Shown one piece after another: positions 1,936 to 56,492 of a stretch of DNA of 64,000 nt. Origin of the DNA: Escherichia coli (GTDB taxonomy: Bacteria > Pseudomonadota > Gammaproteobacteria > Enterobacterales > Enterobacteriaceae); NCBI RefSeq assembly GCF_024223415.1, contig NZ_CP100500.1; one strand, written 5' to 3'. The notes beneath the pieces were generated by a model. It did no database searches. It was not told where the DNA came from and saw only the letters and a list, made by a program, of their open reading frames with translations. Position 1 is the stretch's first letter. Each line of letters begins with the position of its first letter. The translations under genes and the position numbers were made by a program.

Positions 1936-2333
1936 CGCTTCAGTTCCTGTATCAGCAGAGTCAGGAGCTTTTCGCTGACATTGCCATTGAAGCGGAGCGT
2001 CCCGTGCCGGAACGTTACCTCACAGCTGATACTGAGGGTTTCCGGGTCCTCTGCGAGCGATTCTGGCTGTTCGGCAGCTGCATCGAGAGTCACAGGAAGT
2101 AGCTGGGGGCTCTCTGAAGAAGGTAATAGCAGCTTTCCCTCGCGCCATTGTTGTCGCCATTTGAACAACAGATTGGCGTTAATGCCATTTTCAAGAGCAA
2201 GTTTTGAGATGGATATCCCGGGTTCACAGGAGGCAGCAACGAGCTGCTGTTTAAATTCGGGAGGATAATTAGGGCAGCCTTTTCGCCTGCCGGGAGTCAC
2301 ATTTTTCTGCATATCTGACACTTTGGTTCCCAC
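1932..2333 (-). CDS. IS66 Orf1-like accessory protein
   Basis: 133-aa ORF overlapping orf2 by 4 bp, as is typical for IS66 family elements. Confidence 0.75.
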   Translation of the reverse strand: MGTKVSDMQKNVTPGRRKGCPNYPPEFKQQLVAASCEPGISISKLALENGINANLLFKWRQQWREGKLLLPSSESPQLLPVTLDAAAEQPESLAEDPETLSISCEVTFRHGTLRFNGNVSEKLLTLLIQELKR

Positions 2334-2764
2334 TACTTATTTGGTGGACACCACTTTGTCTAATTCGTCAGATTCTGACCAGACGGTTCAGGCTGTACGC
2401 TTACGCCTGAAAGCTGACTGCCTCCTGCTGAGGTGGGAGGCTATGATTCAGTGCGTTTATAGTCTCCGGGGTATGCATGTACCGGAGCATACCATTTCTG
2501 GTGGATAACAAGCCGGCACATTCAGACTGCAGTGAAGATGGAGGCACCTGGTTGTGAAGAACGTTTCTGCCCGTGGCTGCTTCGCATCATCAATGGTATT
2601 CATACCCGCTCAGAAATGACCGGGTGCTGAAGCCCTCCGTTATCGCGCAGTATAATGACGTATATGATCTGTGGACGAGTGAGCGGCGTGCCTGATGTAC
2701 GCCGCTATTACTGTATTTTACCACAGGGCTGGTTTTCTGCTGCCAGCCCTGTGGTTCTCAGACA

Positions 2765-3373
2765 TCAACTGTGAGCGGCATCAACCGATGTACGGTATGC
2801 CATAAGCACGTACTGATCCATCAGATTTGTCAGTGGTTCACTCTGACCCTGACGTGCAATGATCCATTGCTCCAGATCTTTTTCTGATTTGTGTTTCAGG
2901 TTTTTCGTCCAGTCGTCAAGGCTGTTTCCGGTCATTAAGTCAAGCCAGCAGAGCCAGACCAGTTTGAGACGTAACTCCGTGCCGCCAAACTGACGGAAGA
3001 GGCTGATCAGTTTGTTTGCCAGAGAATGTTGCTTCAGGCGCTCACATTCAGACAGCAGGATCCCTTCCAGCATCGGATGATGAACCAGCAGGTGTTCGCT
3101 GGTGCATAAATTCACCACCAGATCATCATCCAGGGACGGGGAGCTCCGTTTGTCCGGACCATAAATCAGCCGGTGCAGACTCTGGGGAACGATGGCAATC
3201 TCCGGTTTTTCGCCATTGAATGACACCCACCCGGGCGTCAGATTATGGAAATAGTAGATATTCGGATGACACACGCCCCATGATACGGCGTGCCGGGTGA
3301 AGCCGGTCAGCCATTTCTGGTAGTTTTCATGGAGCAGCTCGTAACGGGTCTGATACTGTTGTTTCATTTTCAT
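2765..3373 (-). CDS. hypothetical protein, island-associated, co-transcribed downstream of the alpA-like gene
   Basis: 205-aa ORF; likely start at an ATG a few codons inside the listed GTG start, with a GAGGA ribosome-binding site upstream; no family recognised. Confidence 0.5.
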   Translation of the reverse strand: MKMKQQYQTRYELLHENYQKWLTGFTRHAVSWGVCHPNIYYFHNLTPGWVSFNGEKPEIAIVPQSLHRLIYGPDKRSSPSLDDDLVVNLCTSEHLLVHHPMLEGILLSECERLKQHSLANKLISLFRQFGGTELRLKLVWLCWLDLMTGNSLDDWTKNLKHKSEKDLEQWIIARQGQSEPLTNLMDQYVLMAYRTSVDAAHS

Positions 3374-3460
3374 ATTCCTCACGGGGGATAACAGGCAGCA
3401 GAGCGCCGCCGGCAGGCCGGAGATTGCGTCTGCTGTGGGCGAAGGGTTAGTGGTTAAAAA

Positions 3461-3667
3461 TTACGGACGGGACTGTGCAATACGCGCCTGCAGCCAGGCT
3501 TCCACTTCACTTTTCAGCCAGCGGGAGCTGCGCCCCATTTTGATGGGCGCAGGAAAGCCCCCATCTTTGATGAGTTTGTCAAACCACTTATCGGTTAGGC
3601 CGGTCAGTTGAGTGATAAACGCCATGTCGACCATCTGGTCATCCATCAGCGAAACTGGGGTAGCCAT
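3461..3667 (-). CDS. AlpA-family phage regulatory protein (excisionase-like DNA-binding protein), about 68 aa
   Basis: MATPVSLMDDQMVDMAFITQLTGLTDKWFDKLIKDGGFPAPIKMGRSSRWLKSEVEAWL - typical AlpA/MerR-like HTH; start placed at the internal Met. Confidence 0.8.
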   Translation of the reverse strand: MATPVSLMDDQMVDMAFITQLTGLTDKWFDKLIKDGGFPAPIKMGRSSRWLKSEVEAWLQARIAQSRP

Positions 3668-18659: not shown

Positions 18660-18735
18660 TGGCTCCTCTGACTGGACTCGAACCAGTGACATACGGATTA
18701 ACAGTCCGCCGTTCTACCGACTGAACTACAGAGGA
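18660..18735 (-). tRNA. asnV: tRNA-Asn (GUU)
   Basis: Reverse complement matches the E. coli tRNA-Asn sequence including CCA. Confidence 0.95.
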
Positions 18736-21068: not shown

Positions 21069-21144
21069 TGGCTCCTCTGACTGGACTCGAACCAGTGACA
21101 TACGGATTAACAGTCCGCCGTTCTACCGACTGAACTACAGAGGA
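21069..21144 (-). tRNA. asnU: tRNA-Asn (GUU)
   Basis: Identical sequence to asnV. Confidence 0.95.
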
Positions 21145-22892: not shown

Positions 22893-22968
22893 TCCTCTGT
22901 AGTTCAGTCGGTAGAACGGCGGACTGTTAATCCGTATGTCACTGGTTCGAGTCCAGTCAGAGGAGCCA
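22893..22968 (+). tRNA. asnW: tRNA-Asn (GUU)
   Basis: TCCTCTGTAGTTCAGTCGGTAGAACGGCGGACTGTTAATCCGTATGTCACTGGTTCGAGTCCAGTCAGAGGAGCCA. Confidence 0.95.
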
Positions 22969-37875: not shown

Positions 37876-37951
37876 TGGCTCCTCTGACTGGACTCGAACC
37901 AGTGACATACGGATTAACAGTCCGCCGTTCTACCGACTGAACTACAGAGGA
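37876..37951 (-). tRNA. asnT: tRNA-Asn (GUU)
   Basis: Identical to asnV/asnU. Confidence 0.95.
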
Positions 37952-38942: not shown

Positions 38943-39032
38943 GGAGAGATGCCGGAGCGGCTGAACGGACCGGTCTCGAAAACCGGAGTAGGGGCAACTC
39001 TACCGGGGGTTCAAATCCCCCTCTCTCCGCCA
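38943..39032 (+). tRNA. serU: tRNA-Ser (CGA)
   Basis: GGAGAGATGCCGGAGCGGCTGAACGGACCGGTCTCGAAAACCGG...CTCTCCGCCA, long variable arm, anticodon CGA. Confidence 0.9.
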
Positions 39033-47671: not shown

Positions 47672-48235
47672 TATGTATTCCCTTGTGATTATAATCTTCA
47701 TGGATATATCAATAAGTGCCGTTATCCAAAAAAGCACATTTGGATACTATTCTATGAAGTTCATTTTATTTTAAGGGTTACATGTAACAAATGTATTTAA
47801 AAGATTTCAAAATGTTTCCAATCTATTTAATATAATTCAGAATTATGAATTCTAGATATAAGCATTCATGAGATTTATAAATATATATCAATATGTTATG
47901 AGTTAATCGGAAAGATAGGGAGTATCAATGAGTGTTGCGCTAAACGGCTGGTGTGATCACGCGCATATTAATGAAGGCATAAAAAAAAGCCGGCATCATG
48001 CCGGCCCAAAAAATATAAACAAGACGATAAAAGGCTAATAACGGGGTTATCATGACACAGAAATCAAAAAAGGTATAATTGAATTCGGTGCTAATATATT
48101 GTTTAGGTGAATTAATAAAACCATTACCATAGATAATAATAAATCTTTATTGCTGTTTTTCCGGTAATTATTGCCATTGCGCAAAAATTATCTATTTGTT
48201 CAAAAAATGATTGAGTCTTGACTGGCTCATCCAAT

Positions 48236-49336: not shown

Positions 49337-49402
49337 GCGCGTGGCCCTAAATGGCTGTAATTATGTTAACCTGTCGGCCATCTCAGATGGCCGGTTAAAT
49401 CT

Positions 49403-50821
49403 ATGCAGGAAAATATATCAGTAACCGATTCATACAGCACCGGGAATGCCGCACAGGCAATGCTGGAGAAACTGCTGCAAATTTATGATGTTAAAACGCT
49501 GGTGGCGCAGCTTAATGGTGTGGGTGAGAATCACTGGAGCGCGGCAATTTTAAAACGTGCGCTGGCGAATGACTCGGCATGGCACCGTTTAAGTGAGAAA
49601 GAGTTCGCCCATCTGCAAACGTTGTTACCCAAACCACCGGCACATCATCCGCATTATGCGTTTCGCTTTATCGATCTATTTGCCGGAATTGGCGGCATCC
49701 GTCGCGGTTTTGAATTGATTGGCGGACAATGCGTGTTTACCAGCGAATGGAACAAACATGCGGTACGCACTTATAAAGCCAACCATTATTGCGATCCGGC
49801 GACGCATCATTTTAATGAAGATATCCGCGATATCACCCTCAGCCATAAAGAAGGCGTGAGTGATGAGGCGGCGGCGGAACATATTCGTCAACACATTCCT
49901 GAACACGATGTTTTACTGGCCGGTTTCCCTTGTCAGCCATTTTCGCTGGCTGGCGTATCGAAAAAGAACTCGCTCGGGCGGGCGCACGGTTTTGCCTGCG
50001 ATACCCAGGGCACGCTGTTTTTTGATGTGGTACGCATTATCGACGCGCGTCGTCCGGCGATGTTTGTGCTCGAAAACGTCAAAAACCTGAAAAGTCACGA
50101 CCAGGGTAAAACGTTCCGCATCATCATGCAGACGCTGGACGAACTGGGCTATGACGTGGCTGATGCAGAAGATAACGGGCCGGACGATCCGAAAATCATC
50201 GATGGTAAACATTTTCTGCCGCAGCACCGTGAACGCATCGTGCTGGTGGGTTTTCGTCGCGATCTTAATCTGAAAGCCGATTTTACTCTGCGTGATATCA
50301 GCGAATGTTTCCCTGCACAGCGAGTGACGCTGGCGCAGCTGTTGGACCCGATGGTCGAGGCGAAATATATCCTGACGCCGGTGCTGTGGAAGTACCTCTA
50401 TCGATATGCGAAAAAACATCAGGCGCGCGGTAACGGCTTCGGTTATGGAATGGTTTATCCGAACAATCCGCAAAGCGTCACGCGTACGCTGTCTGCGCGT
50501 TATTACAAAGATGGCGCGGAAATTTTAATCGATCGCGGCTGGGATATGGCCACGGGTGAGAAAGATTTTGACGATCCGCTGAATCAGCAACATCGTCCAC
50601 GTCGGTTAACGCCTCGGGAATGCGCGCGCTTAATGGGTTTTGAAGCGCCGGGAGAAGCGAAATTCCGCATTCCGGTTTCGGACACTCAGGCCTATCGCCA
50701 GTTCGGTAACTCGGTGGTCGTGCCGGTCTTTGCCGCGCTGGCAAAACTGCTTGAGCCAAAAATCAAACAGGCGGTGGCGTTGCGTCAGCAAGAGGCACAA
50801 CATGGCCGACGTTCACGATAA
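49403..50821 (+). CDS. dcm: DNA-cytosine C5 methyltransferase (CCWGG)
   Basis: 472 aa; motifs FAGIGG and GFPCQPFS. Confidence 0.95.
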
Positions 50822-51272
50822 GGCCACTCGCAGCAAAAATATGCGCGCGATTGCCACGCGTGATACGGCGATTGAGAAGCGCCTCGCCAGTCTGTTAACC
50901 GGGCAGGGCCTGGCGTTTCGCGTTCAGGACGCCAGTCTGCCCGGAAGCCCGGATTTTGTCGTTGATGAATATCGCTGCGTGATATTTACCCATGGCTGCT
51001 TCTGGCATCATCATCACTGCTATCTGTTTAAAGTGCCTGCGACTCGAACCGAGTTCTGGCTGGAGAAGATAGGTAAAAATGTTGAACGCGATCGCCGCGA
51101 TATCAGTCGTTTGCAGGAACTCGGCTGGCGCGTACTGATTGTCTGGGAGTGTGCATTACGTGGGCGCGAGAAGCTGACGGATGAAGCGCTTACCGAGCGT
51201 CTGGAAGAGTGGATCTGCGGCGAAGGTGCCAGCGCGCAGATCGACACGCAGGGGATTCATTTACTCGCTTGA
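50802..51272 (+). CDS. vsr: very-short-patch repair endonuclease
   Basis: 156 aa from [14 protein letters not shown]; overlaps the dcm 3' end by 20 bp. Confidence 0.95.
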
Positions 51273-56405: not shown

Positions 56406-56492
56406 AACACATCAGATTTCCTGGTGTAACGAATTTTTTAAGTGCTTCTTGCTTAAGCAAGTTTCATCCCGACCCCCTCAGGGTCGGGATTT
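56406..56492 (+). ncRNA. dsrA: DsrA small regulatory RNA (activates rpoS, represses hns)
   Basis: AACACATCAGATTTCCTGGTGTAACGAATTTTTTAAGTGCTTCTTGCTTAAGCAAGTTTCATCCCGACCCCCTCAGGGTCGGGATTT matches DsrA as recalled, including its terminator. Confidence 0.9.

What the first reader, a model, noticed from the sequence alone, without database searches (positions are those of the whole stretch)
50802..50821. dcm and vsr overlap by 20 bp in different frames
The vsr start lies inside the dcm 3' end, the known arrangement coupling very-short-patch repair to Dcm methylation. Known biology, recorded for completeness.
Basis: established knowledge. Interest (0 to 1): 0.1.

Follow-up and report, generated by a model that had tools for sequence, protein, structure and literature searches.

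The report
Known dcm–vsr overlapping gene pair
This is the ordinary, textbook E. coli arrangement in which the repair gene vsr starts 20 bases inside the end of the cytosine-methylase gene dcm, so the enzyme that creates a mutation risk and the enzyme that repairs it are made from one transcript.

Summary
They share 20 nt (ATGGCCGACGTTCACGATAA), with vsr in the +1 frame. The junction is base-for-base identical to E. coli K-12 MG1655, where the two genes are annotated with the same 20-nt overlap. The locus is present in 5358 of 5426 complete E. coli genomes. Both proteins pass curated family thresholds, and Vsr differs from the crystallised E. coli enzyme by one residue (R49S). A Shine-Dalgarno-like AAGAGG lies 6 nt before the vsr ATG, inside dcm.

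Papers held here call dcm-vsr one operon and report that a nonsense mutation at dcm codon 45 also abolishes Vsr activity.

Added value comes from a comparison of 80 Enterobacteriaceae species:
- The dcm stop sits at the same place in 51 species.
- All variation inside the overlap falls on vsr wobble positions, so Vsr is the constrained gene and the Dcm tail is a passenger.
- The overlap is 14/17 or 35 nt in a few genera and absent in seven species.
- Sixteen species keep an intact, purifying-selected vsr at the same locus with no dcm.
- A hairpin predicted around the vsr start is not conserved.

Verdict: real, ordinary, already known.

The parts
49403..50821 (+). dcm, DNA-cytosine (C5) methyltransferase, 472 aa; stop TAA at 50819-50821
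   Evidence: ORF. Pfam PF00145 1.4e-76 and PF18284; NCBIfam NF007772 948 bits. 470/472 identical to K-12 Dcm. Motifs FAGIGG 93-98, GFPCQPFS 174-181 (Cys177), ENV 224-226, QHRER 274-278, GNSV 435-438.
50802..51272 (+). vsr, very-short-patch repair T:G mismatch endonuclease, 156 aa; ATG 50802, stop TGA 51270-51272
   Evidence: Pfam PF03852 2.2e-39 and TIGR00632 181 bits, matched from residue 1-2. PDB 1cw0 chain A aligns to residues 2-156 with a single difference, R49S. Residues D51, T63, H64, C66, F67, W68, H69, H71, C73, W86, D97 and C117 are present.
50802..50821 (+). the 20-nt dcm/vsr overlap, ATGGCCGACGTTCACGATAA; vsr codons 1-6 plus two bases of codon 7, read in dcm as (C)AT GGC CGA CGT TCA CGA TAA
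   Evidence: identical in K-12. Across 56 distinct junction sequences, almost all variation inside it beyond the start codon falls on vsr third codon positions, which are dcm first positions.
50790..50795 (+). Shine-Dalgarno-like AAGAGG for vsr, 6 nt before the ATG, inside the dcm reading frame. Its GAG is the one conserved Glu codon in the otherwise variable Dcm tail.
   Evidence: Duplex with the 16S 3' end is -5.8 kcal/mol. A GAG(G/A) core is kept at alignment columns 31-34: the Glu codon is present in 51/56 sequences, while neighbouring Dcm residues have entropy above 2 bits. Function as a ribosome-binding site is inferred.
50819..50821 (+). dcm stop codon TAA, formed by the last base of vsr codon 6 (GAT, Asp6) and the first two bases of codon 7 (AAG, Lys7)
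   Evidence: Species with GAC at codon 6 (Siccibacter) lose this stop, and dcm runs on to a 35-nt overlap. Species with CAT AAx at codons 5-6 stop 3 nt earlier, at 17 nt.

Best explanation
This is the chromosomal dcm-vsr operon of E. coli, in its normal neighbourhood (drpB-yedJ-dcm-vsr, convergent yedA, then yedI). Dcm methylates the inner cytosine of CCWGG. Deamination of that 5-methylcytosine gives a T:G mismatch. Vsr nicks 5' of the T so that a short patch is resynthesised and the C is restored.

vsr has no gap of its own. Its AAGAGG ribosome-binding site and its ATG lie inside the last 32 nt of dcm, and dcm terminates 17 nt after the vsr ATG in another frame. Both genes are therefore carried on the transcript that starts upstream of dcm. 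Ribosomes finishing dcm run across the vsr initiation region. Vsr is initiated separately at ATG 50802, and efficient initiation depends on upstream dcm translation (translational coupling).

Shown here: the identity of both genes, the exact overlap and frame, its identity to K-12, its conservation across genera, and the fact that Vsr's N-terminus is the constrained reading frame. Taken from the literature: a single operon, and loss of Vsr activity in a dcm nonsense mutant. Inferred: that the purine-rich GAG(G) is the functional ribosome-binding site, and that coupling works through ribosome traffic over the vsr start rather than through a specific RNA structure.
For: Gene identity.

Geometry.

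Same arrangement annotated in K-12 and in a near-identical strain.

Presence: 5358/5426 complete E. coli genomes carry the locus. The junction is identical or nearly so in 5319.

Start codon:
- The ATG at 50802 is the real start, because Vsr residues 3-5 and 8-10 are invariant in 56 distinct junctions while the wobble bases vary.
- The same N-terminus [10 protein letters not shown] is kept in 16 species where the upstream DNA is not dcm at all.
- The family models and PDB 1cw0 start at residues 1-2.

Expression signals: no sigma-70-like promoter match on the + strand inside dcm, and no + strand terminator-like site between the genes (weak evidence).

Literature:
Against: The overlap is not required for a working dcm-vsr pair:
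- Cedecea colo and Enterobacter sp. Ag1 have a 12-nt spacer carrying GGAG.
- Buttiauxella sp. B2 has a 35-nt gap.
- Four Buttiauxella species have an oppositely oriented 172-aa ORF between the genes.

Sixteen species keep vsr without dcm.

The hairpin that ViennaRNA predicts around the vsr ribosome-binding site in this sequence is not better than shuffles (z = -1.35). RNAalifold finds no shared structure. The pair counts equal the shuffled and slid controls (64.1% against 63.7% paired; covariation 0.091 at slide 0 and also at slide -3). There is therefore no evidence for an unmasking structure.

Protein levels are not locked together: VSP repair is reported as almost exclusively stationary-phase (PMC3527292).

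The primary papers (Sohail et al. 1990; Dar & Bhagwat 1993; Macintyre et al. 1999) are not held. The statement that vsr translation depends on dcm translation therefore rests on secondary citation and on my own recollection.
Confidence: 0.9

Rival explanations
1. The exact 20-nt overlap has no selected function of its own. It is a passive consequence of the conserved Vsr N-terminus. Dcm's dispensable C-terminal tail simply reads on until the first out-of-frame stop that vsr's codons happen to offer (GA-TAA-G at Asp6-Lys7). Co-expression comes from operon membership and stop/start proximity, not from overlap as such. This is compatible with the best explanation and refines it.
For: Inside the overlap, beyond the start codon, nearly all nucleotide variation is at vsr wobble positions. 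Vsr residues 3-5 are invariant, while the Dcm tail residues vary (G/R, R/C, S/A/T/P, R/Q). The Dcm tail upstream of the overlap is also highly variable, at 2-2.8 bits per residue. The overlap length tracks vsr codon choice: GAC at codon 6 gives 35 nt, and CAT AAx at codons 5-6 gives 17 nt. Non-overlapping and dcm-less arrangements exist.
Against: The stop position is the same in 51 of 80 species spanning Escherichia, Salmonella, Citrobacter, Klebsiella, Enterobacter, Lelliottia and Trabulsiella. Codon 6 is GAT or AAT, never GAC or AAC, in nearly all of them (column 58 is T in 52/56). That could reflect selection to keep the stop, although it could also be shared ancestry or codon bias.
Confidence: 0.4
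2. vsr really starts at the next in-frame ATG (50841, Met14), so there is no overlap.
For: An in-frame ATG exists at 50841. Truncated Vsr lacking about 20 N-terminal residues has been crystallised (1vsr and 1odg cover residues 21/23-156).
Against: Residues 2-13 are conserved at the protein level with synonymous variation across 80 species, including dcm-less loci where nothing else would constrain that DNA. The family models and PDB 1cw0 begin at residues 1-2. The sequence before 50841 (GCAGCAAAAAT) contains no Shine-Dalgarno-like motif.
Confidence: 0.02
3. Vsr activity is delivered as a Dcm-Vsr fusion made by a +1 ribosomal frameshift in the overlap.
For: The vsr frame is open for 54 codons upstream of the ATG, back to a TAA at 50631. 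A frameshift would therefore be geometrically possible.
Against: vsr has its own ATG with a properly spaced AAGAGG. vsr is maintained intact, with the same start, in 16 species lacking dcm and in seven where the genes are separated. From my own recollection, not checked here because the paper is not held, Dar & Bhagwat 1993 reported independent translation.
Confidence: 0.01
4. vsr is expressed mainly from its own promoter inside dcm, and the overlap is irrelevant to expression.
For: Vsr activity is growth-phase dependent, unlike what simple co-expression predicts (PMC3527292). In Buttiauxella and in the dcm-less species, vsr must use other promoters.
Against: There is no + strand promoter-like match inside dcm. 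A nonsense mutation at dcm codon 45 abolishes vsr activity (PMC4444293). The literature describes a single operon.
Confidence: 0.05

Closest known systems
E. coli K-12 MG1655 dcm (b1961) - vsr (b1960)
   Same: Same genes, same order, same 20-nt +1 overlap, identical junction sequence and same neighbours (yedJ upstream). Dcm is 470/472 identical and Vsr has one substitution.
   Different: Only allelic differences: Dcm S104L and V446L, and Vsr R49S.
dcm-vsr loci of other Enterobacteriaceae (Salmonella, Citrobacter, Klebsiella, Enterobacter, Lelliottia, etc.)
   Same: Same synteny yedJ-dcm-vsr-yedA-yedI, with the dcm stop 20 nt after the vsr start in 51 of 80 species.
   Different: Variants exist:
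- The dcm stop lies 17 nt after the aligned vsr start in four species. In two of these (Superficieibacter) the likely GTG start makes the overlap about 14 nt.
- 35 nt in Siccibacter.
- A 12-35 nt spacer in Cedecea colo, Enterobacter sp. Ag1 and Buttiauxella sp. B2.
- An inserted antisense ORF in four Buttiauxella species.
- dcm absent in 16 species.
Vsr homologues linked to other C5-methyltransferases or restriction-modification modules, on plasmids and phages
   Same: vsr lies next to a cytosine-5 methyltransferase gene. Examples are plasmids of Pseudomonas syringae, Aeromonas media, Burkholderia and Sagittula and the Burkholderia phage AH2/KL3 modules (PMC3483164).
   Different: These are distant proteins (44-48% identity), often accompanied by a restriction endonuclease. 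Junction geometry was not examined here.
Caulobacter ScmA / VsrA
   Same: A functional pairing of a solitary cytosine methyltransferase with a Vsr-like endonuclease (PMC12907096).
   Different: The two genes are unlinked on the chromosome, so there is no operon and no overlap.

Membership tests
Vsr very-short-patch repair endonuclease (Pfam PF03852 / TIGR00632) | Sequence match above the curated family threshold | tested here: met
   PF03852 133.6 bits (cut-off 27). TIGR00632 181.3 bits (cut-off 97.85), covering model positions 1-119 of 119.
Vsr very-short-patch repair endonuclease (Pfam PF03852 / TIGR00632) | Catalytic, intercalating and zinc-binding residues of the E. coli enzyme are present. 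The residue list D51, T63, H64, H69, D97; F67, W68, W86; C66, H71, C73, C117 comes from my knowledge of the 1cw0 structure papers. | tested here: met
   All twelve residues are present. The protein is identical to PDB 1cw0 chain A except for R49S.
Vsr very-short-patch repair endonuclease (Pfam PF03852 / TIGR00632) | Nicks 5' of the T of a T:G mismatch in the CTWGG/CCWGG context | not testable with these tools
   This is a biochemical activity. It is inferred from 155/156 identity to the characterised enzyme. The effect of R49S is unknown.
Dcm / C5 DNA-cytosine methyltransferase (PF00145; NCBIfam NF007772) | Sequence match above the curated threshold over the full length | tested here: met
   NF007772 948 bits (cut-off 710), residues 1-469. 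PF00145 258.5 bits. PF18284 N-terminal domain 72.1 bits.
Dcm / C5 DNA-cytosine methyltransferase (PF00145; NCBIfam NF007772) | Conserved C5-methyltransferase motifs: I (FxGxG), IV (PCQ, catalytic Cys), VI (ENV), VIII (QxRxR), X (GNS) | tested here: met
   FAGIGG 93-98, GFPCQPFS 174-181 with Cys177, ENV 224-226, QHRER 274-278, GNSV 435-438.
Dcm / C5 DNA-cytosine methyltransferase (PF00145; NCBIfam NF007772) | Methylates the inner C of CCWGG | not testable with these tools
   Inferred from 99.6% identity to K-12 Dcm.
dcm-vsr overlapping operon as described for E. coli K-12 | Same strand, with the vsr start codon inside the dcm 3' end, a +1 frame and a 20-nt (seven-codon) overlap | tested here: met
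dcm-vsr overlapping operon as described for E. coli K-12 | A ribosome-binding site for vsr lies within the dcm coding sequence | tested here: met
   AAGAGG at 50790-50795, 6 nt before the ATG, -5.8 kcal/mol with the anti-Shine-Dalgarno sequence. The GAG(G/A) core is conserved. Its function is inferred.
dcm-vsr overlapping operon as described for E. coli K-12 | Both genes are transcribed from one promoter upstream of dcm | not testable with these tools
   The consensus scan finds no + strand promoter-like site inside dcm, which is only weak support. The literature states a single operon.
dcm-vsr overlapping operon as described for E. coli K-12 | Vsr synthesis depends on translation of upstream dcm | not testable with these tools
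   Rests on the literature only: the dcm-6 nonsense mutation at codon 45 also loses vsr activity (PMC4444293).

The most novel reading that the evidence does not exclude
The overlap itself is evolutionarily passive, and Vsr has a role that does not depend on the neighbouring Dcm. Sixteen of the 80 Enterobacteriaceae species sampled lack dcm at the syntenic locus, next to yedA-yedI. These include Kosakonia, Phytobacter, Pseudescherichia vulneris, Klebsiella oxytoca and K. spallanzanii. They still keep a full-length vsr, with all catalytic and zinc-binding residues retained and dN/dS of about 0.07. If those genomes carry no other CCWGG cytosine methyltransferase, Vsr is being maintained for something other than repairing Dcm-caused deamination.
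Probability: 0.25. Interest if true: 0.4.

Novelty: already known. Interest (0 to 1): 0.07.

Why it matters
For this window it matters little. The finding correctly annotates two well-studied genes and a published overlap, and it can be closed.

The comparative by-products may interest people working on overlapping genes and on the cost of cytosine methylation:
- Vsr is the constrained partner in the overlap.
- The overlap length is set by Vsr codons 5-7.
- dcm has been lost repeatedly while vsr is kept under purifying selection.

None of these changes the reading of the finding.

Tried and rejected
1. An RNA hairpin (50773-50828) that would sequester the vsr ribosome-binding site and be opened by ribosomes translating dcm.
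- It is predicted in this sequence, but z = -1.35.
- RNAalifold finds no consensus structure in 56 sequences.
- Pair counts do not differ from shuffled or slid controls.
- Rejected as a conserved element.

2. The alternative vsr start at 50841 and the upstream TTG candidates at 50640, 50730 and 50751. Rejected on conservation and family-model grounds.

3. A frameshift fusion. Rejected; see the rival explanations.

4. Reading the primary papers: Dar & Bhagwat 1993 (PubMed 7694036), Sohail et al. 1990 (PMC213244), Macintyre et al. 1999 (PMC93950), Robertson & Matson 2012 (PMC3463329) and the EcoSal methylation chapter. None is held. A full-text search for 'translational coupling' together with vsr and dcm found nothing.

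5. A CCWGG/CTWGG word-count footprint of VSP repair in the window.
- By base composition, CTWGG+CCWAG is five-fold under-represented (92 against 484) and CCWGG is 1.3-fold over-represented (296 against 227).
- A third-order Markov expectation absorbs the effect (O/E 0.76-0.86).
- It is therefore not usable as evidence here.

6. Whether the dcm-less species carry dcm elsewhere in their genomes.

Full report
**Observation**

The ORF table and the raw sequence, rechecked by script, show two ORFs on the + strand.
- The first runs 49403..50821: ATG start, 472 codons, TAA stop at 50819-50821.
- The second, read from the ATG at 50802, runs to the TGA at 51270-51272: 156 codons.
- The second start is offset by 1 (mod 3) from the first frame.
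- The two share 50802..50821, which is 20 nt: ATGGCCGACGTTCACGATAA.

**Identity of the genes**

The 472-aa product matches NCBIfam NF007772 (DNA cytosine methylase) at 948 bits against a cut-off of 710. It also matches Pfam PF00145 and the N-terminal domain PF18284. It is 470/472 identical to K-12 Dcm. It carries the C5-methyltransferase motifs FAGIGG, PCQ (Cys177), ENV, QHRER and GNS.

The 156-aa product matches TIGR00632 (vsr) at 181 bits and PF03852, from residue 1-2 onward. It equals the crystallised E. coli Vsr (PDB 1cw0, residues 2-156) except for R49S.

The surrounding genes are those of the E. coli chromosome: drpB, yedJ, dcm, vsr, a convergent yedA, then yedI, yodC, dgcQ and so on. 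The sRNAs RseX and DsrA and five tRNA genes also lie in the window.

NC_000913.3 annotates vsr at 2030448-2030918 and dcm at 2030899-2032317, which is a 20-nt overlap. An alignment of 200 nt around the junction differs from K-12 at two positions, both outside the overlap.

The 2.1-kb locus is present at 80% coverage or more in 5358 of 5426 complete E. coli genomes. The 80-nt junction is 100% identical in 3280 genomes and 95-99% identical in 2039 more.

**What the literature held here says**

- PMC4444293 states that dcm partially overlaps vsr. [quoted passage not shown] - PMC12907096 and PMC4924334 describe the two genes as one operon.
- PMC2715241 gives the function: Vsr targets T:G mismatches in CTWGG/CCWGG that arise by deamination of Dcm-made 5-methylcytosine.
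- PMC3527292 reports that VSP repair is almost exclusively active in stationary phase. Co-transcription therefore does not mean equal protein levels.

The primary papers could not be read. My recollection that they reported a common promoter, independent initiation and dependence on dcm translation is marked as recollection.

**Anatomy of the initiation region**

AAGAGG lies at 50790-50795, 6 nt before the ATG. It pairs with the 16S 3' end at -5.8 kcal/mol. There is no + strand promoter-like match inside dcm, and no + strand terminator-like site between the genes (weak evidence).

The other in-frame start candidates are three upstream TTGs and a downstream ATG at 50841. None has a Shine-Dalgarno-like sequence.

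**Comparative test**

One scan of species-representative genomes with the Vsr protein returned 80 Enterobacteriaceae loci. I located vsr, dcm, yedJ, yedA and yedI in each. The junctions fall into these classes:

| Junction class | Loci | Notes |
|---|---|---|
| dcm stop 20 nt after the aligned vsr start, +1 frame | 51 | Escherichia, Salmonella, Citrobacter, Klebsiella, Enterobacter, Lelliottia, Trabulsiella, Raoultella. L004 and L035 carry only a truncated dcm. |
| dcm stop at 17 nt | 4 | In two of these (Superficieibacter) the likely GTG start makes the overlap 14 nt. |
| dcm stop at 35 nt | 2 | Siccibacter |
| No overlap | 7 | 12-nt spacer with GGAG in Cedecea colo and Enterobacter sp. Ag1; 35-nt gap in Buttiauxella sp. 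B2; an oppositely oriented 172-aa signal-peptide ORF between the genes in four Buttiauxella species. |
| No dcm within 3 kb | 16 | Confirmed with full-length Dcm as query. |

**Which gene pays for the overlap**

In an ungapped alignment of 56 distinct junctions, Vsr residues 3-5 and 8-10 are invariant, and residue 7 is Lys in 55 of 56.

Inside the overlap, beyond the start codon, nearly all nucleotide variation sits on vsr third codon positions. These are dcm first positions, so the Dcm tail residues change (G/R, R/C, S/A/T/P, R/Q).

The Dcm tail upstream of the overlap is also variable, at 2-2.8 bits per residue. One exception is a Glu codon, GAG, present in 51 of 56 sequences. This codon is the core of the vsr Shine-Dalgarno-like sequence. 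I infer that it is conserved for ribosome binding rather than for Dcm function.

The dcm stop is built from Vsr codons 6-7 (GA-TAA-G). GAC at codon 6 removes it and gives the 35-nt overlap. CAT AAx at codons 5-6 creates an earlier stop and gives 17 nt.

Vsr is therefore the constrained frame, and the length of the overlap follows from Vsr's N-terminal codons. This supports a refinement of the standard reading: proximity and operon membership give co-expression, while the exact 20 nt may not be selected for in itself. I rate that refinement at 0.4. It is compatible with the main explanation.

**RNA structure**

ViennaRNA folds 50773-50828 into a hairpin that encloses the Shine-Dalgarno-like sequence and the ATG, which would fit an 'unmasking by dcm ribosomes' model. 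Three results count against it:
- Its energy is not unusual (z = -1.35).
- RNAalifold finds no shared structure.
- On the 56-sequence alignment, the hairpin's pairs are formed in 64.1% of cells against 63.7% in shuffles, and the covariation score equals that of the -3 slide.

I do not claim a conserved structure.

**Rivals**

- A later start at 50841 is contradicted by protein-level conservation of residues 2-13, including in the dcm-less loci.
- A Dcm-Vsr frameshift fusion is contradicted by the independent ATG with its Shine-Dalgarno-like sequence, and by the existence of stand-alone vsr genes with the same start.
- An internal promoter as the main source of vsr mRNA is contradicted by the polarity of dcm-6 and by the absence of any promoter-like match.

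**Side observations**

The dcm-less vsr genes are full length and keep D51, H64, H69, D97 and the zinc ligands; residue T63 is Ala in one of them and F67 is Tyr in two. They show median dN/dS of about 0.07, against 0.09 for the dcm-linked genes. dS is saturated at about 1.5, so the ratio is approximate.

Their upstream neighbour differs between lineages:
- yedJ ends 12-18 nt before vsr in Kosakonia and Phytobacter.
- A 216-aa ORF (family not checked) lies upstream in K. oxytoca.
- A roughly 450-nt spacer follows an OmpC-like outer-membrane ORF (family not checked) in Pseudescherichia vulneris.

K. indica retains a short dcm remnant. Within the K. oxytoca complex, K. michiganensis and K. grimontii have dcm, while K. 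oxytoca and K. spallanzanii do not. K. oxytoca shares the last 11 nt before the ATG (AGATTAACC plus two further bases) with K. michiganensis; K. spallanzanii shares 10 of them. This points to recent deletion of dcm that spared the vsr initiation region.

I could not test whether these genomes have a CCWGG methyltransferase elsewhere.

**Verdict**

The finding is real, correctly located and correctly interpreted, and it is already-known biology. Interest is low. The only mildly novel material is comparative and lies outside the window.

Noticed in passing
window 50946-50948 (vsr codon 49): This Vsr has Ser at position 49 where K-12 and PDB 1cw0 have Arg, two residues before the catalytic Asp51. 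In the 80 related species the position is R in 76, K in 3 and T in 1, and never S. The exact 51-mer carrying the S allele occurs in 138 of 5426 complete E. coli genomes. The functional effect is unknown.
   Followed up: partly
L026, L027, L034, L038, L039, L044, L047, L048, L061-L063, L067, L068, L071, L077, L083 (vsr at about 3001-3500 of each): Sixteen Enterobacteriaceae species lack dcm at the syntenic locus, next to yedA-yedI; yedJ is also found upstream in 12 of them. They include Kosakonia, Phytobacter, Pseudescherichia vulneris, Klebsiella oxytoca and K. spallanzanii. They keep an intact vsr with catalytic and zinc residues conserved and dN/dS of about 0.07. K. indica (L035) keeps a short dcm remnant. 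Whether a CCWGG methyltransferase exists elsewhere in those genomes was not testable.
   Followed up: partly
L052, L055, L058, L065 (about 2000-3000 of each): In four Buttiauxella species a 172-aa ORF with a signal-peptide-like N-terminus, on the opposite strand, sits between dcm and vsr. The two genes there cannot be translationally coupled.
   Followed up: partly
window 51261-51272: The 3' ends of vsr (+) and yedA (-) overlap convergently by 12 nt. The same overlap is annotated in strain BE2-5.
   Followed up: no
window 49375-49393 (and 49337-49402 generally): A perfect 9+9-nt palindrome, CGGCCATCT c AGATGGCCG, ends 9 nt before the dcm ATG. It is found only in Escherichia (perfect in one of the three Escherichia loci shown, one mismatch in the other two) and not in other genera. 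dcm has no Shine-Dalgarno-like sequence. Across genera the conserved upstream elements are CCGGTTAA at about -14 to -7 and TTATGTTAAC at about -40. No function is assigned.
   Followed up: partly
window 1-64000: By base composition, CTWGG+CCWAG words are about five-fold under-represented (92 observed against 484 expected, both strands) and CCWGG is 1.3-fold over-represented (296 against 227). This is the direction expected from Vsr activity. A third-order Markov expectation removes the effect (O/E 0.76-0.86), so it is not specific at the 5-mer level in this sample.
   Followed up: partly
window 18660-18735, 21069-21144, 22893-22968, 37876-37951, 38943-39032, 47982-48071, 56406-56492: Four tRNA-Asn (GTT) genes with the same Rfam score (72.6 bits), one tRNA-Ser (CGA), and the sRNAs RseX and DsrA. 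This is the normal content of this E. coli region.
   Followed up: no
L004 (Escherichia sp. MOD1-EC7003), about 2217-3020: dcm is truncated to its last 166 codons (matching query residues 307-472), with only a fragment of yedJ upstream. The vsr gene and the 20-nt overlap are intact.
   Followed up: no
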